Assembly (NCBI GenBank): GCA_022729705.1
Contig: DZAX01000005.1
Coordinates: forward strand, 11,704-75,703
Origin: Helicobacter cetorum
GTDB taxonomy: Bacteria; Campylobacterota; Campylobacteria; Campylobacterales; UBA6016
Direction of reading: 5' to 3'
DNA length: 64,000 bases
A model generated the notes under the pieces. That model was not told the DNA's origin, did not search any database, and was given only the letters and a program-made list of their open reading frames with translations. The first letter of the stretch is position 1. Each line of letters begins with the position of its first letter. Positions 15,831 through 25,648 of the stretch are shown piece by piece. The position numbers were made by a program, and so were the translations under genes.

Positions 15831-15890
15831 TCTGCCGCCTTGGCGGCTAGCGTAGCAGAGACGGGCTTTGCCTGTTTTTGCGTACTATAT
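15831..15890. repeat. mosaic hairpin repeat (short form of the 49621-49692 copy)
   Basis: tctgccgccttggcggctagcgtagcagagacgggctttgcctgtttttgcgtactat compared with tctgccgcttcatgcggctagc...gcgtagccaagacgggctttgctcgtcttggcgtactat. Confidence 0.75.
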
Positions 15891-15908
15891 AATACAAAGG
15901 AAATGATA

Positions 15909-17177
15909 ATGAACAACGAAACAATAGCGATTCACGCCGGATACGACAAACACGCTGGTGAAAAAACAATGGCTGTGCCAATCTATCAAAGCACCGCATA
16001 TGCGTTTGACGGAGCCGAGCATGCGGCAAATCTGTTTAGTTTAAAAGAGCTTGGCAATATATACACAAGACTAATGAACCCGACAAGTACGGTGTTGGAG
16101 GCTAGATTTGCGGCATTAGAGGGCGGAGCTAGTGCAGCGGCTACGGCTAGCGGTTCGTCTGCTATATTTTATGCGATTATCAATCTTGCGGCGGCGGGTG
16201 AAAACTTTATCGCCGCAAACAATCTATACGGCGGCTCTATGACTCTTTTTGCCCATACGCTAAAGAGATTTGGAATAGAAGCGCGCTTTTTTGACCCAAA
16301 AAAACCGGAGACGATAGAGGCTCTTATTGACGATAAAACAAGAGCGATATTTTTTGAGAGTTTGTCAAATCCTAGTATCGATATAGTCGATTTTGAGGCA
16401 ATCGTAGCTATTGCAGACAAGCACGGCATAGTCACTGTATGCGACAACACCGTAGCGACTCCAGCACTGTTTAAGCCTTTATCCGTGGGTATAGACGTTG
16501 CGGTGTATTCCACGAGCAAGTACATAGGCGGACAAGGGCAGGGAATAGGTGGCATCATCGTAGATAGCGAAAAATCAACGACAAAAATCAAAGACAACCC
16601 AAGATACGCTCACTTCAACGAGCCGGACGCAAGCTATCACGGGCTTGTCTACTCGTCGCTACCTTTTCCATCGTTTGTTCTTAGGGTAAGACTCGCTCTT
16701 CTTAGAGATATTGGCGCGGCTCCTAGTCCGTTTAATAGTTGGCTGTTTATCCAAGGATTAGAGACTCTGACGATTAGAATGAAAGCGCATAGTGAAAAAG
16801 CGTTGGCGGTAGCGAAGTTTTTGGAGTCTCACCCGAAAGTAAAATCTGTCAAATATCCGGGGCTAAATAGCCACAGAGACCATGAATTGTTGAAAAAATA
16901 CTTTACAGGTGCGCAGGCTGGCGGGCTTATGAGCTTTGAAGCAGAAAACTTTGAAGCGGCAAAATCTGTTGTGAATAGCGTCAAGATATTTACGCCCGTG
17001 GTAAACATCGGCGATAGTAAATCCCTAGTGACTCATCCCGCAAGCACGACGCATTCTCAAATGACAAAAGAGGAGCTAAAAAATGCGGGAATTAGCGATA
17101 CGCTTGTGAGGCTTAGCATCGGACTTGAAGACGAGAGGGATTTGATAGCGGATTTGACAGCGGCGTTGGCTTTTTAA
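15909..17177 (+). CDS. metY: O-acetylhomoserine sulfhydrylase (PLP-dependent Cys/Met metabolism family, about 422 aa)
   Basis: ETIAIHAGY N-terminus and STSKYIGGQG PLP-Lys motif. The start could be the ATG at 15903 or 15909, and 15909 has the better RBS spacing. Confidence 0.85.
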   Translation: MNNETIAIHAGYDKHAGEKTMAVPIYQSTAYAFDGAEHAANLFSLKELGNIYTRLMNPTSTVLEARFAALEGGASAAATASGSSAIFYAIINLAAAGENFIAANNLYGGSMTLFAHTLKRFGIEARFFDPKKPETIEALIDDKTRAIFFESLSNPSIDIVDFEAIVAIADKHGIVTVCDNTVATPALFKPLSVGIDVAVYSTSKYIGGQGQGIGGIIVDSEKSTTKIKDNPRYAHFNEPDASYHGLVYSSLPFPSFVLRVRLALLRDIGAAPSPFNSWLFIQGLETLTIRMKAHSEKALAVAKFLESHPKVKSVKYPGLNSHRDHELLKKYFTGAQAGGLMSFEAENFEAAKSVVNSVKIFTPVVNIGDSKSLVTHPASTTHSQMTKEELKNAGISDTLVRLSIGLEDERDLIADLTAALAF

Positions 17178-17237: not shown

Positions 17238-19904
17238 ATGACAGTTGGGCAGATAGAAAACAATCTTAATATCCTTATCGAAAAAATATCAAATGATTCG
17301 TTTGTATTTGACCTACTACTTGCTTTTGGTTTCCCCAATGCCACCATAAAGAGACTGCAAAACAGCGAACATAATCAACTGCTTTTTTTAGGGGAGTTGG
17401 CGCTTAGAAAGCATCTGTTTTTTAAGGTATCGACGGCGGATGAGCTGTATTCCACACTGGAAACATTATCCGCAGACCCAAGGGTAGTCAAGCACTCTTC
17501 ACGGTTTATCATCGTTACAGATTTCAATCAACTGCTTGCACTTGACACCAAGACAAAAGACACCCTTGACATCGTGATGACCGACATAGCCAAGCGCTAT
17601 GATTTTTTCTTACCGTGGGCTGGCATGGAAAAAGCCACATATCAGGACGAAAACCCTGCCGATGTCAAAGCATCTCTCAAGATGGCGAAGCTATACGACG
17701 AGCTACAAAAAAACAACTCTTTCAAGACAAAAGACGAGATACACTCGCTAAATGTGTTTTTGACGAGGCTACTGTTTTGCTATTTCGCAGAAGATACAAA
17801 TATCTTTGCCGATAATGTATTTACCGAGTCAATCGCATCGCATACGGCTGTTGATGGAAGCGACCTAGATACATATCTCTCACGACTATTTGAAATATTT
17901 AACACACCAGAAAAAGACAGAGACAAAGGCATCCCAGCCTATCTAAATGCCTTTCCATATGTGAACGGCGGACTCTTTAGCCAGAGTCACCCAGTACCGA
18001 AGTTTACCGCCAAGTCAAGAGCCGTGATGATAGAAGTCGGCGGGCTAAACTGGTCGGAGATAAACCCGGATATATTTGGCTCTATGATACAAGCGGTGGT
18101 AACACCGGAGCACCGTGGCACTATGGGCATGCACTACACAAGTATGCCAAATATCATGAAAGTCATTGAGCCGCTGTTTTTGGACGAACTGTACGACGAG
18201 CTCAAAAGAAGCTTTGACAACAAAACAAAACTCCTCGCTCTTCACAAACGCATAGCCAAAATCAAAATCTTTGACCCAGCTTGCGGAAGCGGAAACTTCC
18301 TCATTATCTCTTACAAAAAACTCCGAGAACTGGAAATAAGCATCTTAAAAAGAATCGATACCTTGTCAGCTCAACCAAGCTTCACATTTAGCGAAATCAA
18401 ACTCACACAGTTTTACGGCATAGAGCTAGACGACTTCGCCCACGAGGTGGCTATGCTCTCGCTATGGCTTGCCGAACATCAGATGAATCTGGAGTTTTAT
18501 AAGGCGTTTGACAGGACTACTCCGAGTTTGCCGCTACAAGAGGGCGGGAATATCGTTTGCGGAAACGCTACAAGGCTAGATTGGAGCGATGTTTGCCCAA
18601 AAAATGAGGGTGATGAGATTTATGTTTTGGGTAATCCGCCGTATTTGGGAGCAAGTATTCAAGCAAAAATACACAAAGAAGATATGGCAACAGTTTTTAA
18701 GGGCATTAAAAATTATAAAAACTTAGACTATATATCTTGTTGGTTTTATATTGGCTCACACTATATTCAAAATATAAATGCAAAAGTGGCTTTTGTTACT
18801 ACAAACTCAATTTGTCAAGGCGAACAAATTGAATATTTATGGACTCATTTATTAAAAAATTCAGAAATATTTTTTGCCCATCAATCTTTTAAATGGAAGA
18901 ACAGTGCAAAAGATAACGCAGGCGTTATAGTTGCAATTATTGGTTTAGCGAATAAAAGCAACATAACAAAAAAATGGCTTTTTAGGGAAAGCGTCAAGCA
19001 AGAAGTTGGTTTTATTAATGCGTATTTAGCAAACTCTAGTGTATCAATTATTGCAAAAAAAACCAAACCAATTTCTAAATTGTCAAAAATGGTTTTGGGC
19101 GATGCTCCAAAAGATGGTGGTAATTTAATTTTGTCCGCATTAGAAAAAGACGAGCTAATTTTTAAATATTCGGATATAGCAAAAATAATTTATAAATATA
19201 TTGGAGCTAGCGAATTTATAAGAGGACAAAAGAGATGGTGTTTATGGATTGAGGATTCAAATTTAGAACTAGCAACTTCAATACCGGAGGTTAGACACAG
19301 AATAGAAAAAGTAAGAACTATGAGGTTGAACAGCAAAAAAGAAGCTACGCAAGAGTATGCAAAAATGCCTCATAGGTTCGTAGAGATTCGATACAGAAAA
19401 ACTGAATCTACAATTATAATTCCAAATGTGTCTTCTGAGCGTAGAGAATATATTCCTATTGGTTTTTTGAATAGTGAAACAATTATTGCAAATTCTGCAA
19501 GTGCTATTTACGGTGGTTCTATTATTGATTTTGGAGTATTAACATCAAAAATGCACATGGTATGGATGCGAACAGTCGCAGGAAGATTAAAAACAGATTA
19601 CCGTTATTCATCGGCTCTAGTTTACAACACATTCCCATTTCCAAATATCTCACAAACCCAAAAAGACGAGCTAACAGAATTTGCATTTGGCGTTTTAGAC
19701 GAACGAGAATATCACAGCGAAAAAACACTAGCCCAGCTCTACGACCCGAACAAAATGCCGGAGGGCTTACGCAAAGCACATCATGCGCTAGATATTGCCA
19801 TAGAAAAATGCTACCGCCAAAAACCGTTTGAAAGCGACGAAGAACGCCTCGAATATCTTTTTAAGATGTATGAAGAGATGACGGGGAAGGAGAATAAAAG
19901 ATGA
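17238..19904 (+). CDS. MmeI-family (type IIL / BREX PglX-like) N6-adenine DNA methyltransferase with TRD; N-terminal nuclease motif apparently degenerate (888 aa)
   Basis: Collinear with MmeI as I recall it: LTRLLFCYFAEDTNIF, AFPYVNGGLF, MHYTS, motif I FDPACGSGNFLI (18273-), motif IV GNPPY (NPPY 18633-18644), SICQGEQ, YRYSSALVYNTFPFP, LAQLYDP..MPEGLRKAHHALD. Where MmeI has D..EMK, this protein reads LGELALRKH (17394-17414). Confidence 0.85.
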   Translation: MTVGQIENNLNILIEKISNDSFVFDLLLAFGFPNATIKRLQNSEHNQLLFLGELALRKHLFFKVSTADELYSTLETLSADPRVVKHSSRFIIVTDFNQLLALDTKTKDTLDIVMTDIAKRYDFFLPWAGMEKATYQDENPADVKASLKMAKLYDELQKNNSFKTKDEIHSLNVFLTRLLFCYFAEDTNIFADNVFTESIASHTAVDGSDLDTYLSRLFEIFNTPEKDRDKGIPAYLNAFPYVNGGLFSQSHPVPKFTAKSRAVMIEVGGLNWSEINPDIFGSMIQAVVTPEHRGTMGMHYTSMPNIMKVIEPLFLDELYDELKRSFDNKTKLLALHKRIAKIKIFDPACGSGNFLIISYKKLRELEISILKRIDTLSAQPSFTFSEIKLTQFYGIELDDFAHEVAMLSLWLAEHQMNLEFYKAFDRTTPSLPLQEGGNIVCGNATRLDWSDVCPKNEGDEIYVLGNPPYLGASIQAKIHKEDMATVFKGIKNYKNLDYISCWFYIGSHYIQNINAKVAFVTTNSICQGEQIEYLWTHLLKNSEIFFAHQSFKWKNSAKDNAGVIVAIIGLANKSNITKKWLFRESVKQEVGFINAYLANSSVSIIAKKTKPISKLSKMVLGDAPKDGGNLILSALEKDELIFKYSDIAKIIYKYIGASEFIRGQKRWCLWIEDSNLELATSIPEVRHRIEKVRTMRLNSKKEATQEYAKMPHRFVEIRYRKTESTIIIPNVSSERREYIPIGFLNSETIIANSASAIYGGSIIDFGVLTSKMHMVWMRTVAGRLKTDYRYSSALVYNTFPFPNISQTQKDELTEFAFGVLDEREYHSEKTLAQLYDPNKMPEGLRKAHHALDIAIEKCYRQKPFESDEERLEYLFKMYEEMTGKENKR

Positions 19905-20293
19905 GTAATTTAACATTTTCGGCATTTCAGTTAATAGTTGATGAAAAAGTTCCAAATATAAGTAATTTTATCGAATATAGAAATGAACAGTATGATACTA
20001 AAGATAATATTTATAGGGTCACTACTAAACAAATTAAAAATAAATATTATTGGATTTATATGGAATATGGTGGGGAATTGCCTTATGGTGAAAAGGTATA
20101 TGACAAGGAAAAATCAGAAATATTGAATAATCCAAGAACAAAAAGTCAAGCTGAGTTAAATAAGCAACTTTTCTGTCTTTATGATTTTGAACAACATACT
20201 TTTTATATTTCAGATGGCAGGAAAAAAGGCTTTCTTGAAGAATATTTAAAATACAAATTATCAAAAGATATAGTGATTAAGAGATTTTTTTAA
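19901..20293 (+). CDS. hypothetical protein, 5' part of a probably frameshifted gene (130 aa as read)
   Basis: ATGA overlap with the methyltransferase stop. Very AT-rich. The ORF ends in a T7 tract (20285-20291) and a stop-free continuation runs in the +1 frame over 20292-20492. Confidence 0.5.
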   Translation: MSNLTFSAFQLIVDEKVPNISNFIEYRNEQYDTKDNIYRVTTKQIKNKYYWIYMEYGGELPYGEKVYDKEKSEILNNPRTKSQAELNKQLFCLYDFEQHTFYISDGRKKGFLEEYLKYKLSKDIVIKRFF

Positions 20294-20540
20294 AAGTCCA
20301 GAACAATTTCTTGAACATGTTAAAACAATCGAAAGTATAAGTTTTACTTCAAAACACAATCTTTTTTCTAACCTAAAAGATATATTTGGAGAACCGAATG
20401 ATATATTTGGCTTAGGACAGCCAGAAAATTTTAAAATGGATATTACCTACAATGAAAGAAAAATGACGGAAAGTTTTAAAACAAAATTTTAGGAAGATAC
20501 GAACAAAGTGCAGTACAAGAAAATTTATTAAACATATTAG

Positions 20541-21002
20541 ATGGATTACAAAATGTATAGTGAACATATAAAAATTTTATTTTTAACAACTATAGGTATT
20601 TTTATAATATGCTTTTCTATTGATGTTTCCATTAGTGAATCATTAATGCAAAACTTTATCACTTTTCTTTCAATTACATTCGGTTTTTATATGACAAGTC
20701 TATCAGTTTTGTACGATTCAAAATATATTAAAAAACTATATGATGAAATTGACCCTAAAAAACCAACTCAACGAAAAATACATACCTTAAAAAGTTATTT
20801 TAAAGCTAGTGCTTATTGGTCTTTGTTTTCTATTGGCTTATTAATGATTTATTCCTTAGCTACAAAAGTTGAAAGCAATATTTTGGTTTTAAGTACTTTT
20901 TTTGAGAGTCTTTTGGTTTTTATTGTTTTTGTAAATTTTGTCTTTATGTTTCTGTTGTTTAATGTATTTATTAATGGCTTGGTTGAAGAGGCGGCAAAAT
21001 GA
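20541..21002 (+). CDS. small integral membrane protein, about 4 TM segments (153 aa)
   Basis: Four hydrophobic stretches (ILFLTTIGIFIICFSI, FITFLSITFGFYMTSLSVL, YWSLFSIGLLMIYSLA, LLVFIVFVNFVFMFLLFNVFI). ATGA overlap with the next gene. No family recognised. Confidence 0.55.
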   Translation: MDYKMYSEHIKILFLTTIGIFIICFSIDVSISESLMQNFITFLSITFGFYMTSLSVLYDSKYIKKLYDEIDPKKPTQRKIHTLKSYFKASAYWSLFSIGLLMIYSLATKVESNILVLSTFFESLLVFIVFVNFVFMFLLFNVFINGLVEEAAK

Positions 21003-21985
21003 CAGAAAATAGCAATATCCTAATCTACCAAAACGAAAGCGGCAATATCAAAGTCGATGTGAGTTTTGTTGACGGCTCCGTATGGCTATCGCAAGCACAA
21101 ATTTGTGAACTATTTGGCAAAGCAAAATCAACGATTAGTGAGCATATTAGTGCTATTTTTGAAGATGGTGAGCTGGATAGAGAGTCAGTTGTTCGGAATT
21201 ACCGAACAACTGCGAGTGACGGCAAGAGCTACGGTGTAGATTACTACAATCTCGATATGATAATCGCTATAGGCTTTAGGGTAAGGTCATCAACAGGAAC
21301 AAAATTTAGAATCTGGGCAAATGAAAAGCTACGAGAGTACATCACAAAAGGTTTTGTGCTAAACGATGAACGATTTAAAAACGGTACTTCTATGAGCTAC
21401 TTCGACGAACTTCAACAGCGTCTGCGTGAAATCAGGCTTTCAGAACGATTTTTTTATCAAAAAATCAAAGACATCTATATGACAAGTAAAGACTATGACT
21501 CAAAAAATGAAAAGACCATAGAGTTTTTCAAAATCGTACAAAACAAACTACTATGGGCTGTATCTTCTCAAACTGCCGCAGAATTAGTCCATAATAGAGT
21601 GGATATGAGCAAACCTCTTTTGGGGATGAACTCTTTTGATAAAGACTCTAAAAATGTAACAAAAAAAGATGTGAGTATCGCCAAAAATTATCTGGATGCA
21701 GAGGAAATAAAGCTACTTGGTCTTTTGGTTGAGCAGTATTTGGCATTTGCGGAAACTATGGCGATGCAGCAAAGACCGATGTACATGAAAGACTGGATAA
21801 CGAGGCTGGATATGGTTATATCGCTAAACGGCAGGGAGCTTTTGACCCATGCGGGGAAAATCAGCCACGAAATTGCAAAAGCAAAAAGCGAACTAGAGTA
21901 TGGCAAATACAAAGATGTACAGAAAGAACAACAAAAGATTCAGAGCATCAAAGAGCTTGAAGAGGACATAAAGAGGCTAAAATGA
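20999..21985 (+). CDS. RhuM-family (virulence/RhuM) protein (328 aa)
   Basis: N-terminal ILIYQNESGNIKVDV...VWLSQAQICELFGKAKSTISEHI..IFEDGELD..SVVRNYRTTASDGKSY.VDYYNLDMIIAIGFRV.S..GT.FRIWA is the characteristic RhuM signature, seen frequently inside R-M and defence loci. Confidence 0.8.
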   Translation: MTENSNILIYQNESGNIKVDVSFVDGSVWLSQAQICELFGKAKSTISEHISAIFEDGELDRESVVRNYRTTASDGKSYGVDYYNLDMIIAIGFRVRSSTGTKFRIWANEKLREYITKGFVLNDERFKNGTSMSYFDELQQRLREIRLSERFFYQKIKDIYMTSKDYDSKNEKTIEFFKIVQNKLLWAVSSQTAAELVHNRVDMSKPLLGMNSFDKDSKNVTKKDVSIAKNYLDAEEIKLLGLLVEQYLAFAETMAMQQRPMYMKDWITRLDMVISLNGRELLTHAGKISHEIAKAKSELEYGKYKDVQKEQQKIQSIKELEEDIKRLK

Positions 21986-23898
21986 CAAATTTGATAGAAG
22001 TAGAATACCACCAAACAGGCGAGAGCAAAAAGACAAATAGATACGGCATGAGGGAAATGCAGGAAAAAGCATTTGCCGCAAGAGCCGTGCAGTATCTGCT
22101 ACTCAAAGCCCCTCCGGCCTCAGGCAAATCAAGAGCCTTGATGTTTATAGTGCTTGATAAACTAGAGAATCAGGGCATAGACAAAGCAATCGTAGCTGTA
22201 CCAGAACGGTCTATCGGCGGTTCATTTGCCGATACAGACCTAAAAGCAGATGGATTTTTCGCCTCATGGGAACCAAATCCTCATTACAACCTCTGTACGG
22301 GCGGAGGCGAGACAAGCAAAGTTCATACATTCAAAAAATTCCTCTCAAGCGATGAGAAGATACTTATCTGCACCCATGCTACGCTTAGATTTGCGTTCAA
22401 AGAGCTTGAAGACTCACGGTTTGATAATATTTTGCTTGCTATTGACGAATTTCATCATGTATCAGCCGACGGTGACAATCAACTCGGTGAAGTCATCAGA
22501 ACCGTAATGCAAAACTCGAATGCGCATATCATAGCGATGACCGGCTCATATTTTAGGGGTGATAGTATACCTGTTTTGCTTCCAGAAGATGAGGCAAGGT
22601 TTACAAAAGTGACCTACAACTACTACGACCAGCTAAATGGCTATGAATATCTAAAATCTCTCGGTATAGGCTATCACTTTTATCAAGGCAAATATACGAG
22701 TGCGATAAATGAAATATTGGACACAGACAAAAAAACAATACTACACATTCCAAATGTAAACTCCGGCGAATCCACAAAAGATAAACACAAAGAGGTAGAT
22801 ACTATTCTTGATATTATCGGGGAAGTTCAAGAAGTTACAACGGACGGCGTTATACTTGTCAAAAGACATGACGACGGTAAGATTGTAAAAGTAGCCGACT
22901 TGGTTGACGATGACCAAAAGCGACGAGATAAAATAGTCGCTTATCTGCGAAATACCAAGAACGAAGAAGATATGGATCTCATCATCGCCCTTGGTATGGC
23001 AAAAGAGGGGTTTGACTGGTCATTTTGCGAGCATGCTCTTACCGTAGGATACAGAAGCTCATTGACTGAAATCATCCAAATCATAGGGCGAGCAACAAGG
23101 GATAGCAAAAATAAAACCCATGCACAATTTACAAACCTAATCGCCCAGCCGGATGCAGAGGATTTGCAAGTAAAACTATCGGTAAATAATATGCTCAAAG
23201 CGATAACCGCTTCACTGCTGATGGAGCAAGTTTTGGCTCCAAACTTCAAGTTCAAACCAAAATTTGATGATGATAATGAACCACTTCAAAAAGGCGAGCT
23301 AAAAATCAGGGGGTTCAAGAAGCCCTCAAGCAAAAGAGTAGAAGATATACTAGAATCAGACCTCAACGACCTCAAAGCCACAATCTTGCAAGATGAACAA
23401 ATGATAAAAGCAATACCCGGAAATGTTGACCCAGAGGTTATAAACAAGGTACTTATTCCAAAAATTATCAAAGTGAAATATCCTGATTTGAATGACAACG
23501 AAATAGAAGAGATTCGCCAGCATGTAGTCGTTGATAGTGTTATAAAAAACGGTCATATTATTGACCAAGGCGGCAAAAAATTTATCAAAATGGCAAACAA
23601 ATTTGTAAATATTGATGATTTGCGCATCGACCTTATAGATCAAGTAAATCCATTCCAAAGAGCCTTTGAGATTTTGTCAAAATCAGTGACAACGCAAGTG
23701 CTAAAGCTTATACAAGAAAGCATTGAGTCTACGAGAATAGAGATGACGCCTGAAGAGGCAGTGATTTTATATAGGAAAATTCCAGCTTTCAAAAGCGAAC
23801 ACGGCAGGATGCCGGATATTAATGCAAACGACTTTCAAGAAAAAAGAATGGCAGAAGCAATAATATATTTGAATAAACTCAAAAGAGAAAGAGCCTAA
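21982..23898 (+). CDS. SF2 DEAD/DEAH-box (ResIII-like) helicase with about 240-aa C-terminal extension (638 aa)
   Basis: Walker A KAPPASGKS, motif II AIDEFHH (DExH), motif III MTGS, motif VI QIIGRATRD. ATGA overlap with the RhuM gene. 1-nt overlap (TAATG) with the next gene. Confidence 0.8.
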   Translation: MTNLIEVEYHQTGESKKTNRYGMREMQEKAFAARAVQYLLLKAPPASGKSRALMFIVLDKLENQGIDKAIVAVPERSIGGSFADTDLKADGFFASWEPNPHYNLCTGGGETSKVHTFKKFLSSDEKILICTHATLRFAFKELEDSRFDNILLAIDEFHHVSADGDNQLGEVIRTVMQNSNAHIIAMTGSYFRGDSIPVLLPEDEARFTKVTYNYYDQLNGYEYLKSLGIGYHFYQGKYTSAINEILDTDKKTILHIPNVNSGESTKDKHKEVDTILDIIGEVQEVTTDGVILVKRHDDGKIVKVADLVDDDQKRRDKIVAYLRNTKNEEDMDLIIALGMAKEGFDWSFCEHALTVGYRSSLTEIIQIIGRATRDSKNKTHAQFTNLIAQPDAEDLQVKLSVNNMLKAITASLLMEQVLAPNFKFKPKFDDDNEPLQKGELKIRGFKKPSSKRVEDILESDLNDLKATILQDEQMIKAIPGNVDPEVINKVLIPKIIKVKYPDLNDNEIEEIRQHVVVDSVIKNGHIIDQGGKKFIKMANKFVNIDDLRIDLIDQVNPFQRAFEILSKSVTTQVLKLIQESIESTRIEMTPEEAVILYRKIPAFKSEHGRMPDINANDFQEKRMAEAIIYLNKLKRERA

Positions 23899-25049
23899 TG
23901 CTTTCGCTTGAAGAAATACTTAAGAGTGACCCGCTGGGGCTTTTGGGTGAGGTAAAAGCTCAAAATAGGGCGGCAACCGAAGATGAGAGACTTGTAGCCT
24001 CATTTAACGAAATAAATGATTTTATTGATATGCATGGCATGGAGCCGGCAAAATCAACGGATATGAATGAAAGGACACTTTTTTCTAGACTTCAAGGGTT
24101 AAGAGAGCATCCTGACAAGACAAAAGCCTTGAAGCCATATGACCGCTACAATCTTCTGCAAGAAGTAGAAAGTAACTCCATTGATGACATCCTAAACAAC
24201 GATGCTTTCGGTCTGCTTAGTGATGATGCAGATACCGTTTTTGAACTAAAGCATGTTCCAAAGCATAAAGAAATTGCTCAGGCCGACTTTATCGCTTCGA
24301 GAAAACCGTGCAAAGAGTTTGATAAATATGAAATACTATTTAAAGAGTGCCAGCAGGATTTGAGAGATGGCAAAAGAAGGCTTGTAAGATTCAATGAAAA
24401 ATTCATGGAAGAAGGAAGTTTTTTTATTCTTAAAGGGGTAATGGTCTATCTTGAAAAAATAGTTTCAGCCGCCAAAGATAAACACAATAAGATGGATGGT
24501 AGAACATATTGTGTATTTGAAAATGGCACAGAGTCAAATATGCTTATGAGATCTCTTGGAAGGGGGCTTTATGAGGATGGCTATTTCGTAAGCAAACACG
24601 AAGACAGGCTTCTCGATAAATTTGCAAATATAGCAGATGCAGACAAGCGAAGCGGTTTTATATATATCTTAAAATCAAAAAGTACATCTGAAAAAATACA
24701 ATCCATCAAAAATCTATACAAAATAGGCTACTCCACAATAGAAGTTAAGGAGCGAATAAAAAATGCCGAAAACGAACCAACATACTTAATGGCTCCCGTT
24801 TCAGTTGTAAGTATCTATGAATGCTACAATATGAACACTCAGAAGTTTGAACAGTTGATTCATAAATTTTTTGGTAAAGTTTGTCTCAATATAGATATTT
24901 TTGGAAATGATGGACAAAGATATAGCCCAAGAGAATGGTTTGTAGCGCCATTGGACATCATCGAGCAGGCTATTGAGCTAATAATCAGCGAGGAAATAAT
25001 ACATTATCGTTATGACGAGATTGCCAATGGGATTAGGGTTGCAAAATAG
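23898..25049 (+). CDS. T5orf172/MUG113-domain (GIY-YIG superfamily) protein with unrecognised about 240-aa N-terminal region (383 aa)
   Basis: C-terminal GFIYILKSKS...LYKIGYSTIEVKERIKN...REWFVAPLDIIEQAIELI fits the T5orf172 pattern (GxhYhL, KIGxT, R, EWF). Confidence 0.7.
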   Translation: MLSLEEILKSDPLGLLGEVKAQNRAATEDERLVASFNEINDFIDMHGMEPAKSTDMNERTLFSRLQGLREHPDKTKALKPYDRYNLLQEVESNSIDDILNNDAFGLLSDDADTVFELKHVPKHKEIAQADFIASRKPCKEFDKYEILFKECQQDLRDGKRRLVRFNEKFMEEGSFFILKGVMVYLEKIVSAAKDKHNKMDGRTYCVFENGTESNMLMRSLGRGLYEDGYFVSKHEDRLLDKFANIADADKRSGFIYILKSKSTSEKIQSIKNLYKIGYSTIEVKERIKNAENEPTYLMAPVSVVSIYECYNMNTQKFEQLIHKFFGKVCLNIDIFGNDGQRYSPREWFVAPLDIIEQAIELIISEEIIHYRYDEIANGIRVAK

Positions 25050-25074: not shown

Positions 25075-25422
25075 CTAGTTCTTAAAATTCAAACACAAAC
25101 ACTCAATCAACTCTTCATATTCCACACTCGACAGTGTCGCTATTTTCTCGCCGATACGCTTTTTTGAGATAGCTCTGACATGGTTTATCAAAATATCGGA
25201 GTTTTCTTTGAGTTTTTCTCTACTTTTTAGCCTCATTCGGTACGGCTTCATGTCGTCCATAAGCGAAGTTGAGAGCGGCATGACTACGACGGTGTCTAAT
25301 ACGGAGTTTTCATCGTCGCCGGAGATAATGACGGCGTGGCGAATTTTACCTACTTCGTCGCCTTTTTTTGGGTTGAAGTTGATGGTGACTATATCGCCTC
25401 TTTTATAGCCCATCATCCACAC
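25075..25422 (-). CDS. MazF/PemK-family type II toxin (115 aa; start may be Met4 at 25413)
   Basis: KRGDIVTINFNP.KGDE.GKIRHAVIIS...VVVMPLSTS matches the PemK/MazF N-terminal pattern. Overlaps the upstream antitoxin gene. Confidence 0.8.
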   Translation of the reverse strand: MWMMGYKRGDIVTINFNPKKGDEVGKIRHAVIISGDDENSVLDTVVVMPLSTSLMDDMKPYRMRLKSREKLKENSDILINHVRAISKKRIGEKIATLSSVEYEELIECLCLNFKN

Positions 25423-25648
25423 CTAGTTCGCAAAATTCGATGTCTTGATGAGCTTTGAGCTTGTGCAGTTTTTCTAACTTCTCTTTTTTTTCTATCGCAT
25501 CAATAGCGGGCTTTATCAGCGCTTCGTATTTTGAAGATATGAAATATCCCAAACTTTTATTTGCCCGTTTGTCTACTATCTCGCCGATTGCGGTATCCTT
25601 GAGCAAGGATGGTTTATTTTGGATTGCTGTTACGCCAAGCGTTGTCAT
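25403..25648 (-). CDS. antitoxin, Phd/YefM-like (81 aa)
   Basis: Small ORF overlapping the toxin start. The N-terminus (VTAIQNKPSLLKD....EIVDKRANKSLGYFIS.KYEALI) resembles Phd/YefM. Confidence 0.6.
   Translation of the reverse strand: MTTLGVTAIQNKPSLLKDTAIGEIVDKRANKSLGYFISSKYEALIKPAIDAIEKKEKLEKLHKLKAHQDIEFCELGVDDGL

What the first reader, a model, noticed from the sequence alone, without database searches (positions are those of the whole stretch)
21982..25049. DExH helicase and T5orf172 (GIY-YIG) protein form a tight pair and share a short helicase-associated-like motif
The helicase core (Walker A KAPPASGKS, DEFH, QIIGRATRD) ends near residue 400. An unassigned ~240-aa tail follows and terminates in ..IPAFKSEHGRMPDINANDFQEKRMAEAIIYLNKLK. 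The next protein begins with a similar element, ..INDFIDMHGMEPAKSTDMNERTLFSRLQGLRE, with the pattern hG+xP, acidic, E+, hydrophobic, L+. This resembles the helicase-associated (HA) repeat. The second protein ends in a T5orf172 domain (GFIYIL..., YKIGYS, REWF), a GIY-YIG-superfamily module. The genes overlap by 1 nt. A helicase paired with a separate GIY-YIG partner sharing an interaction-like motif would be an unusual motor-nuclease arrangement. Type I/III/ISP systems use PD-(D/E)XK nucleases.
Basis: partly seen in the sequence, partly recalled or inferred. Interest (0 to 1): 0.7.

Follow-up and report, generated by a model that had tools for sequence, protein, structure and literature searches.

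The report
YeeB helicase and YeeC nuclease pair
The helicase and T5orf172 nuclease genes are real and tightly coupled, but they are the already described YeeB/YeeC partners of an MmeI-like methyltransferase (YeeA/DnmA) that lies 2 kb upstream, so this is one more copy of a known, poorly characterised type I-like restriction system.

Summary
ORF 21982-23898 is an SF2 DEAH helicase. ORF 23898-25049 ends in a T5orf172/MUG113 (GIY-YIG superfamily) domain. The two overlap by 1 nt (TAATG).

The pair is not a new arrangement. The helicase is 64% identical to B. subtilis YeeB and 54% to V. crassostreae YeeB. The nuclease is 41% and 34% identical to the two YeeC proteins.

It is an MmeI-family methyltransferase/TRD at 17238-19904 that lacks the PD-ExK motif (YeeA/DnmA type). 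Morgan et al. 2009 described this trio and proposed a type I-like restriction system.

In 80 genomes from many phyla and archaea, the helicase sits directly upstream of YeeC in 78. The methyltransferase is upstream in 56 of 60 informative loci. In 32 of those it is separated by co-directional cargo genes, as here (RhuM, a membrane protein, a frameshifted gene).

The shared motif is real: hhalign gives 86-91% probability, and column-shuffled controls reach at most 4%. It is not the HA domain. Its weak Pfam match is the PMBR repeat.

B. subtilis YeeB, which showed no defence, lacks the helicase copy of this motif. Whether the motif is an assembly interface is inferred, not shown.

The parts
17238..19904 (+). 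YeeA/DnmA-type MmeI-family N6-adenine methyltransferase with its own target recognition domain (888 aa); no PD-ExK nuclease motif
   Evidence: Pfam MmeI_N, MmeI_hel, MmeI_Mtase (2e-106), MmeI_TRD (9e-83) and MmeI_C. PADLOC REase_MTase_IIG. phmmer aligns it to MmeI (5hr4) only from residue 87. In the profile alignment, MmeI D70/E80/K82 fall on E53/K63/S65, so there is no ExK. FDPACGSGNF and GNPPYLG are intact.
19901..20557 (+). Decayed cargo gene. ORF 19901-20293 (130 aa) is the N-terminal half of a 268-aa protein, and the rest is frameshifted.
   Evidence: tblastn of the intact L018 homologue (268 aa) hits the window in frames 3, 1 and 3 (86%, 68%, 61% identity). No Pfam, PADLOC or NCBIfam match.
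20541..21002 (+). Cargo: 153-aa predicted membrane protein that travels with the 268-aa gene
   Evidence: 74% identical homologue follows the 268-aa gene in L018. No significant family hit.
20999..21985 (+). Cargo: RhuM-family protein (328 aa); overlaps the helicase start by 4 nt
   Evidence: Pfam Virulence_RhuM 5e-97. PADLOC PDC-S05 3e-129. RhuM sits at the same position in other loci, with 6 of 68 gap proteins matching RhuM.
21982..23898 (+). YeeB-family SF2 DEAH helicase (638 aa): motor core about residues 20-400, conserved helical tail 400-638
   Evidence: Pfam DEAD, ResIII and Helicase_C. 63.7% identity to B. subtilis YeeB over residues 1-600 and 53.6% to V. crassostreae YeeB over the full length. 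Motifs I, II, III and VI invariant in 73/73 homologues.
23746..23883 (+). Helicase copy of the shared helix-loop(G-R/K-x-P)-helix motif (residues about 589-634)
   Evidence: hhalign to the YeeC N-terminus. Weak PMBR match at tail-slice residues 20-43. P611 and E620 are 73/73. AF2 helices 590-607 and 618-637 have pLDDT about 83. Absent from B. subtilis YeeB.
23898..25049 (+). YeeC-family protein (383 aa): N-terminal three-helix module, disordered linker, beta-rich middle domain, C-terminal T5orf172 nuclease domain
   Evidence: Pfam T5orf172 and MUG113. 41% identity to B. subtilis YeeC and 34% to V. crassostreae YeeC over the full length. AF2 model with pLDDT 72.
23988..24107 (+). YeeC copy of the shared motif (residues about 31-70)
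   Evidence: hhalign. PMBR hits in 25 of 39 family members. P50 and L65 are 84/84; F36, E58 and R64 are 83/84. AF2 helices 28-46 and 56-70.
23904..23948 (+). Short repeat 1 in YeeC (SLEEILKSDPLGLLG)
   Evidence: Self-hhalign aligns residues 2-19 with 93-110, score 36, E 2e-4, probability 48%. Conservation.
24177..24221 (+). Short repeat 2 in YeeC (SIDDILNNDAFGLLS), inside the disordered linker
   Evidence: Linker residues 91-132 have pLDDT below 50.
24645..24992 (+). T5orf172 (GIY-YIG superfamily) catalytic domain (residues about 250-365)
   Evidence: G253, Y256, K275, I276, G277, R286, E318, E346, W347 and F348 are invariant in 84/84 homologues. An Arg and a Glu are the conserved catalytic residues of the T5orf172 nuclease Odn, where E180A abolishes cleavage (PMC8263062). 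Which YeeC residues correspond to them was not aligned here.

Best explanation
The two genes are the YeeB helicase and YeeC nuclease of a three-component YeeA(DnmA)-YeeB-YeeC system.

Proposed mechanism:
- The MmeI-like protein at 17238-19904 recognises an asymmetric DNA site through its own TRD. It methylates one adenine to mark self DNA. It has no nuclease of its own.
- On unmethylated foreign DNA it recruits or licenses the SF2 motor YeeB, which uses ATP to translocate or remodel DNA.
- YeeB brings in YeeC, whose T5orf172/GIY-YIG domain cuts the DNA.
- YeeB plus YeeC thus act as a split equivalent of a type I HsdR subunit.
- The homologous helix-loop-helix modules (YeeB C-terminus, YeeC N-terminus) and the two ILxxDxxGLL peptides on YeeC's flexible linkers are the likely assembly elements.

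The three genes between the methyltransferase and the helicase are passenger defence genes, of the kind also found embedded in type I operons.

Shown here: family membership, synteny, absence of PD-ExK, invariance of the active-site residues, and homology of the two motif copies.

Taken from the literature: DnmA methylates one strand, a T5orf172 domain can be an active nuclease, and yeeAB protect V. crassostreae from some phages.

Inferred: the order of events, the physical complex, and the role of the motif.
For: Membership. The helicase is 63.7% identical to BsYeeB and 53.6% to VcYeeB. The nuclease is 41% identical to BsYeeC and 34% to VcYeeC, all essentially full length (sequences from FIG S5 of PMC9973331).

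Methyltransferase. All five MmeI Pfam domains are present. MmeI D70/E80/K82 align to E/K/S here, and to E/K/V-type residues in 52 family members.

Synteny in 80 genome loci from many bacterial phyla and Methanosarcinales. The helicase is directly upstream of YeeC in 78, mostly overlapping. The methyltransferase is upstream on the same strand in 56 of 60 informative loci (24 adjacent, 32 with a 0.6-7.6 kb gap). The same trio occurs on Arthrobacter, Ligilactobacillus and Synechococcus plasmids.

Cargo. All 68 gap ORFs are co-directional. They include RhuM, Fic/DOC, YhcG/DUF1016, AlbA_2/HATPase_c_4, AAA_13, AAA_21, Mrr_cat, TIR and Abi_C.

Selection. Helicase motifs I, II, III and VI are 73/73. 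YeeC Y256, K275-I-G277, R286 and E346 are 84/84.

Motif. hhalign gives 91% and 86% probability against at most 4% in shuffles.

Literature. Morgan 2009 proposed this model. yeeAB inactivation restores phage sensitivity in V. crassostreae. Odn shows that a T5orf172 domain cleaves DNA.
Against: - In B. subtilis, deleting dnmA, yeeB or yeeC changed neither transformation efficiency nor infection by three phages. DnmA sites are also not depleted in phage genomes (PMC7261158, PMC9973331).
- No biochemistry or structure exists for YeeB or YeeC. No PDB relative was found by sequence.
- PADLOC v2 has no model for the pair.
- The Vibrio study tested yeeA and yeeB, not yeeC.
- In this window a neighbouring cargo gene is frameshifted, so some local decay has occurred.
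- No multimer prediction was possible, so the complex and the motif's role remain untested.
Confidence: 0.6

Rival explanations
1. The locus is a relic. The methyltransferase acts as an orphan epigenetic regulator, and YeeB/YeeC no longer restrict anything, as concluded for B. subtilis.
For: B. subtilis experiments found no restriction and no phage protection. A cargo gene inside the window's operon is frameshifted. Truncated remnants occur on Klebsiella, Acinetobacter and Pseudomonas plasmids.
Against: All three window ORFs are intact and full length. Every helicase and nuclease catalytic residue is invariant across 73-84 homologues from distant phyla, which implies purifying selection on activity. 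B. subtilis YeeB is an atypical C-terminally truncated form, whereas the window protein has the full tail. The Vibrio homologues do defend.
Confidence: 0.2
2. YeeB and YeeC form a self-contained two-gene helicase-nuclease defence module that senses DNA structures or phage proteins. The methyltransferase is only a frequent neighbour.
For: Four of 60 informative loci have no MmeI-like gene within 8 kb upstream. In many loci the methyltransferase is several kb away. Helicase-nuclease pairs without methylases are common defence systems (titles listed).
Against: The methyltransferase is present on the same strand in 56 of 60 informative loci. This subgroup of MmeI homologues has specifically lost its own nuclease, which makes sense only if a partner nuclease replaces it. 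Morgan 2009 reports the association as invariable.
Confidence: 0.1
3. YeeC is not a nuclease.
For: T5orf172 was first predicted to be a DNA-binding domain (cited). DnmA sites are not avoided by Bacillus phages. The motif position reads KIG rather than YIG.
Against: The Arg and Glu that are conserved catalytic residues in GIY-YIG enzymes and in the active T5orf172 nuclease Odn have invariant candidate counterparts here, R286 and E346, 84/84. Their equivalence rests on motif position, not on an alignment made here.
Confidence: 0.1

Closest known systems
B. subtilis DnmA(YeeA)-YeeB-YeeC cluster and its V. crassostreae homologue (Morgan 2009; Nye 2020; Fernandez 2023; Piel 2021 preprint)
   Same: The same three protein families in the same order and orientation. 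The helicase is 64% and 54% identical, and the nuclease 41% and 34% identical. The methyltransferase lacks PD-ExK, as described for YeeA.
   Different: Three cargo genes (2 kb) separate the methyltransferase from the helicase here. The window helicase keeps the C-terminal 38 residues that B. subtilis YeeB lacks.
Type I restriction-modification (HsdM/HsdS/HsdR)
   Same: Separate modification/specificity and motor-nuclease parts. An SF2 DEAD/ResIII-type motor. Operons that host the same embedded passenger genes, such as RhuM, Fic, DUF1016, PrrC-like AAA_13 and toxin-antitoxin pairs. An example of an hsd operon split by prrC and relBE appears in PMC13081822.
   Different: Specificity lies in a TRD fused to the methyltransferase, and there is no HsdS. 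Methylation is presumably on one strand, as in MmeI. The nuclease is a separate GIY-YIG superfamily protein rather than a PD-(D/E)XK domain fused to the motor.
MmeI (type IIG/IIL single-chain enzyme, PDB 5hr4)
   Same: Residues 87-883 align to MmeI 107-904 with E 1.6e-184. All five MmeI Pfam domains are present.
   Different: The N-terminal domain has lost the catalytic ExK; the residues aligned to E80 and K82 are K63 and S65. Cleavage must therefore come from elsewhere.
ICP1 Odn (Gp88) and T5orf172 homing-endonuclease-like proteins
   Same: C-terminal T5orf172 domain with a conserved Arg and Glu. An N-terminal targeting part joined to the nuclease.
   Different: Odn targets DNA through a RepA-like DNA-binding domain and acts alone. 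YeeC has a PMBR-like helical module, disordered linkers and a beta-rich domain, and is always paired with a helicase. PHROGs gives no hit for YeeC.

Membership tests
YeeA/DnmA-YeeB-YeeC system | Helicase homologous to B. subtilis YeeB over its full length | tested here: met
   BLASTP gives 63.7% identity over window residues 1-600 against YeeB 1-603 (OCR copy), and 53.6% to V. crassostreae YeeB over 3-637.
YeeA/DnmA-YeeB-YeeC system | T5orf172 protein homologous to YeeC over its full length | tested here: met
   41% identity to B. subtilis YeeC (E 1e-86) and 34% to V. crassostreae YeeC (E 5e-68). 44% identity to the A. baumannii plasmid gene next to OXA-23, whose Tn2009 context carries genes named yeeC and yeeB in PMC9258068.
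YeeA/DnmA-YeeB-YeeC system | MmeI-family methyltransferase/TRD in the same operon that lacks the PD-ExK motif | tested here: met
   Present at 17238-19904 on the same strand. MmeI D70/E80/K82 align to E53/K63/S65. The family-wide pattern is E/K/V.
YeeA/DnmA-YeeB-YeeC system | Gene order MTase > helicase > nuclease, immediately adjacent | tested here: inconclusive
   The order and strand are kept, but three cargo ORFs intervene. The same interruption occurs in 32 of 56 loci, so strict adjacency is not a true family requirement.
YeeA/DnmA-YeeB-YeeC system | Restriction or anti-phage activity | not testable with these tools
   Literature only: positive for yeeAB in V. crassostreae, negative in B. 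subtilis.
GIY-YIG nuclease superfamily (T5orf172 branch) | Profile match to T5orf172/MUG113 above the curated cut-off | tested here: met
   T5orf172 scores 49.5 bits (cut-off 20) and MUG113 scores 53.7 bits (cut-off 22.3).
GIY-YIG nuclease superfamily (T5orf172 branch) | Conserved first-motif Tyr and the catalytic Arg and Glu | tested here: met
   Y256, R286 and E346 are invariant in 84/84. The second motif reads Y/F-K-I-G. A Glu is the catalytic residue mutated in Odn (E180A); its equivalence to E346 is by motif position and was not aligned here.
Helicase-associated (HA) domain, PF03457 | Profile match of the shared motif to the HA model | tested here: not met
   No PF03457 hit at E<=1 in 39 YeeC N-termini or 35 helicase tails, and none in the full proteins at E<=0.01.
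Pseudomurein-binding repeat (PMBR), PF09373 | Profile match above the gathering score | tested here: inconclusive
   25 of 39 YeeC N-termini (best E 1.5e-4) and 9 of 35 helicase tails (best E 0.015) match. The window tail scores 13.5 bits against a cut-off of 24.9. This is a resemblance, not membership.
Type I restriction-modification | HsdS specificity subunit and an HsdR with a fused PD-(D/E)XK nuclease | tested here: not met
   No HsdS or HsdR family hit. The TRD is fused to the methyltransferase, and the nuclease is a separate T5orf172 protein. The system may work like type I but is not a member.

The most novel reading that the evidence does not exclude
The homologous helix-loop(G-R/K-x-P)-helix modules at the YeeB C-terminus and the YeeC N-terminus, together with the duplicated ILxxDxxGLL peptides on YeeC's disordered linkers, form the assembly code. 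Through them the motor and the nuclease dock on each other or on the nuclease-less N-terminal domain of the methyltransferase. Loss of the helicase copy would then explain why the B. subtilis system is inert. I found no mention of this in the papers read.
Probability: 0.35. Interest if true: 0.5.

Novelty: new member of a known kind. Interest (0 to 1): 0.3.

Why it matters
The YeeABC trio is widespread. The YeeC family has 437 clusters at 50% identity with E<=1e-30. It occurs in many bacterial phyla, on conjugative plasmids and in Methanosarcinales archaea. It still has no biochemistry, no structure and no entry in PADLOC v2.

It would be the clearest natural case of a type I-like restriction machine in which the motor and a GIY-YIG superfamily nuclease are separate proteins.

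This window adds no new kind of system. The analysis does give three testable leads:
- a conserved motif shared by motor and nuclease;
- its absence from the inactive B. subtilis YeeB;
- the methyltransferase-helicase junction as a hot spot for passenger defence genes.

It also shows that the finding as written (a two-gene unit, an HA-like motif, an unusual arrangement) needs correcting.

Tried and rejected
- **HA domain:** rejected, with no PF03457 match in 74 family members.
- **Named defence systems:** PADLOC gives only weak partial hits (PbeA, Cas3 and DpdF for the helicase; PDC-S57 for the nuclease). NCBIfam gives nothing above cut-off. PHROGs gives a generic DNA helicase for YeeB and nothing for YeeC.
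- **Solved structures by sequence:** none for YeeB or YeeC.
- **AF2 model of the helicase:** too poor to use (mean pLDDT 50), because the alignment was restricted to sequences at least 81% identical. Only the C-terminal helices are confident.
- **Foldseek of the full YeeC model against the PDB:** only weak eIF5A/EF-P-like matches (E about 0.01, TM 0.13-0.14). I do not interpret them.
- **Third copy of the motif in the methyltransferase N-terminal domain:** none found (hhalign probability 0.1-0.2%).
- **Reaching B. subtilis YeeC through a homologue search seeded with a Paenibacillus protein:** failed. The sequences came instead from FIG S5 of PMC9973331.
- **Promoter and terminator scan:** no enrichment over shuffles.

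Full report
**1. What is in the sequence**

Between a Cys/Met-metabolism gene (15840-17177) and groES/groEL (26058 onward) lies a run of co-directional ORFs with lower G+C (0.32-0.40, against 0.43-0.47 on either side).

| Coordinates | Strand | Size | Identity |
|---|---|---|---|
| 17238-19904 | + | 888 aa | MmeI-family protein |
| 19901-20293 | + | 130 aa | no family match |
| 20541-21002 | + | 153 aa | hydrophobic protein |
| 20999-21985 | + | 328 aa | RhuM-family protein |
| 21982-23898 | + | 638 aa | helicase |
| 23898-25049 | + | 383 aa | T5orf172 protein |
| 25075-25648 | - | 115 + 81 aa | MazF-like toxin and small upstream partner |

The junctions are ATGA or TAATG overlaps, apart from one 247-nt gap.

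- helicase: DEAD, ResIII and Helicase_C;
- second protein: T5orf172 and MUG113 at residues 253-362.

The quoted motifs and the 1-nt overlap are correct.

**2. What the pair is**

The literature search led directly to the B. subtilis dnmA(yeeA)-yeeB-yeeC cluster.

- Morgan et al. 2009 (PMC2731913) split the MmeI homologues into two sets. One set carries an N-terminal PD-ExK nuclease. The other lacks it and is 'invariably' next to a YeeB-like DEAD helicase and a YeeC-like protein with GIY-YIG motifs. They proposed that the MmeI-like subunit gives specificity and host methylation, and that the helicase and endonuclease subunits cut. In their words the architecture is similar to type I systems.
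- Fernandez et al. 2023 (PMC9973331) confirmed the synteny bioinformatically. They found no restriction or phage protection in B. subtilis.
- Piel et al. (bioRxiv 10.1101/2021.05.05.442762) found that yeeAB mediate resistance to one group of phages in Vibrio crassostreae.

I tested membership directly. FIG S5 of PMC9973331 holds the B. subtilis and V. crassostreae sequences (machine-read with some OCR noise).

| Window protein | Compared with | Identity | Extent |
|---|---|---|---|
| Helicase | B. subtilis YeeB | 63.7% | window residues 1-600 |
| Helicase | V. crassostreae YeeB | 53.6% | window residues 3-637 |
| T5orf172 protein | B. subtilis YeeC | 41% | nearly full length |
| T5orf172 protein | V. 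crassostreae YeeC | 34% | nearly full length |

The upstream 888-aa protein has all five MmeI Pfam domains. It aligns to MmeI (PDB 5hr4) at E 1.6e-184, but only from its residue 87. A profile of 45 N-termini aligns further into MmeI. That alignment places MmeI D70, E80 and K82 on E53, K63 and S65 of the window protein. Across 52 family members these positions read E, K and V/T/I. The ExK catalytic pair is therefore absent, as described for YeeA. The methyltransferase motifs (FDPACGSGNF, GNPPYLG) are intact.

**3. Synteny survey**

A scan of one genome per species returned 80 loci. They come from Campylobacterota, Bacteroidota, Bacillota, Alpha-, Beta- and Gammaproteobacteria, Verrucomicrobiota, Chlamydiota, Saccharibacteria, Bdellovibrionota and Methanosarcinales. 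ORF calling plus phmmer with the window proteins shows:

- The helicase lies directly upstream of YeeC in 78 of 80 loci, nearly always overlapping or within 15 nt.
- The MmeI-like gene is upstream on the same strand in 56 of the 60 loci that have enough upstream sequence.
- It is adjacent in 24 of these and separated by 0.6-7.6 kb in 32.

Annotated plasmids from Arthrobacter, Ligilactobacillus and Synechococcus show the same trio. In Synechococcus a RelE/ParE toxin-antitoxin pair sits between the methyltransferase and the helicase.

The YeeC family has 437 clusters at 50% identity with E<=1e-30.

The conserved unit is three genes, not two.

**4. The intervening genes are cargo**

All 68 ORFs found in the methyltransferase-helicase gaps are co-directional. 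Their Pfam families are:
- Schlafen AlbA_2 / HATPase_c_4
- RhuM
- Fic/DOC
- YhcG/DUF1016
- AAA_21
- Mrr_cat
- AAA_13
- PDDEXK_3
- ORF6N
- TIR
- nSTAND3
- Abi_C
- 23S_rRNA_IVP

From general knowledge, this is the repertoire also found embedded in type I hsd operons. One example, prrC and relBE between hsdMS and hsdR, appears in PMC13081822.

In the window the cargo is RhuM, a 153-aa membrane protein, and a gene that has decayed. The 130-aa ORF is the N-terminal half of a 268-aa protein that is intact in locus L018. The remainder is frameshifted, which accounts for the 247-nt gap.

**5. The shared motif**

I built family alignments of the helicase tail (residues 575-638) and the YeeC N-terminus (residues 1-100).

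- hhalign gives probability 91%, E 1e-6 and score 35.8. It aligns LYRKIPAFKSEHGRMPDINANDFQEKRMAEAIIYLNK with SFNEINDFIDMHGMEPAKS-TDMNERTLFSRLQGLRE.
- Sixty column-shuffled controls reach at most score 17 and probability 4%. The reversed profile scores 9.
- Independent alignments run through the session's hhalign tool give 86%.
- In a comparison of the whole tail (400-638) with YeeC 1-250, this is the only match.

The key residues are conserved:

| Copy | Residue | Conservation |
|---|---|---|
| Helicase (73 sequences) | F603 | 72/73 |
| Helicase | P611 | 73/73 |
| Helicase | E620 | 73/73 |
| Helicase | R622 | 72/73 |
| YeeC (84 sequences) | F42 | 82/84 |
| YeeC | P50 | 84/84 |
| YeeC | E58 | 83/84 |
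| YeeC | R64 | 83/84 |
| YeeC | L65 | 84/84 |

AF2 places both copies in helix-loop-helix elements of good local confidence.

The HA domain (PF03457) is not detected in any of 74 family members at E<=1. Both copies independently give weak hits to PF09373, the pseudomurein-binding repeat: 25 of 39 YeeC N-termini and 9 of 35 helicase tails, all below the gathering score.

No third copy was found in the methyltransferase N-terminal domain.

YeeC also contains a short internal repeat, residues 2-19 and 93-110 (consensus ILxxDxxGLL). It flanks the helical module, and the second copy lies in a linker predicted to be disordered.

One correlation stands out. B. subtilis YeeB ends at ...VFIWPKV (599 aa). 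It therefore lacks exactly the loop and second helix of the helicase copy. The defence-active V. crassostreae YeeB and the window protein both keep them. Fernandez et al. noted missing C-terminal stretches without defining them. This is a single case and does not prove function.

**6. Is YeeC a nuclease?**

G253, Y256, K275-I276-G277, R286, E318 and E346-W347-F348 are invariant in 84 of 84 homologues.

The ICP1 protein Odn shows that a T5orf172 domain is an active DNA endonuclease. It retains the catalytic Arg and Glu, and E180A abolishes cleavage (PMC8263062).

Helicase motifs I, II, III and VI are invariant in 73 of 73. These patterns argue for selection on ATPase and nuclease activity. They argue against a purely relic or purely DNA-binding role.

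**7. Mechanism and confidence**

The best-supported reading is Morgan's model. The methyltransferase/TRD marks self DNA and recognises unmarked sites. YeeB is the ATP-driven motor. YeeC is the nuclease, tethered by flexible linkers.

- I put membership in the YeeABC family at about 0.9.
- I put the full mechanistic statement at about 0.6, because no biochemistry exists and the B. subtilis data are negative.
- The motif as an assembly interface is an inference, at about 0.35.

**8. Novelty**

The arrangement has been in the literature since 2009, with later genetic tests. The window holds a further, intact member in a Sulfurimonas-like genome; exact copies are found in GCA_022730395.1 and three other assemblies.

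As far as I could find, three points have not been reported:
- the homology of the two motif copies;
- the absence of the helicase copy from B. subtilis YeeB;
- the cargo hot spot between the methyltransferase and the helicase.

These are modest additions, and the interest score is low to moderate.

Noticed in passing
window 19905-21981; loci L010-L087 (gaps between the MTase and the helicase): The junction between the MmeI-like methyltransferase and the helicase is a hot spot for co-directional passenger genes in 32 of 56 loci. They include RhuM, Fic/DOC, YhcG/DUF1016, AlbA_2/HATPase_c_4, AAA_13, AAA_21, Mrr_cat, TIR, nSTAND3 and Abi_C. This is the same repertoire seen embedded in type I hsd operons.
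   Followed up: partly
window 19901-20557: The 130-aa ORF is the N-terminal half of a 268-aa protein of unknown function that is intact in L018 (4019-4825). In the window the rest is broken by frameshifts. In L018 the gene is followed by a homologue of the 153-aa membrane protein, so the two look like a mobile pair.
   Followed up: partly
window 25075-25648 (- strand): A PemK/MazF-like toxin (115 aa, 1.5e-24) with an overlapping 81-aa upstream partner lies just downstream of the YeeC gene and convergent with it. It is conserved in the four assemblies that carry the identical YeeC.
   Followed up: no
FIG S5 of PMC9973331, compared with window 23746-23883: B. subtilis YeeB (599 aa) stops just before the loop and second helix of the motif shared with YeeC. 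V. crassostreae YeeB (674 aa) and 73 of 73 surveyed helicases keep it. This is a possible reason for the inactivity of the B. subtilis system.
   Followed up: partly
window 23904-23948 and 24177-24221: YeeC carries a duplicated short peptide (consensus ILxxDxxGLL). One copy is at the extreme N-terminus and one is in the disordered linker. Both are conserved across 84 homologues and look like short linear docking motifs.
   Followed up: partly
L090 (A. baumannii plasmid CP061542.1), L006 (K. pneumoniae plasmid), L005 (Pseudomonas pPHE101): Fragments and orphan copies of yeeC and yeeB ride on resistance plasmids. In A. baumannii the yeeC homologue lies between OXA-23-like genes, the Tn2009 context described in PMC9258068. 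In K. pneumoniae, yeeC stands alone beside IS elements. The pPHE101 helicase lacks its N-terminal 66 residues, including the Walker A motif.
   Followed up: partly
L074, L085; protein P0322: Full trios, or full-length YeeC, occur in archaea (Methanococcoides, Methanosarcinaceae, Methanosarcina mazei) at about 50-60% identity to bacterial copies. This indicates inter-domain transfer.
   Followed up: no
L026: In one Sulfurimonas MAG the MmeI-like gene lies immediately downstream of YeeC (order helicase-YeeC-MTase) instead of upstream.
   Followed up: no
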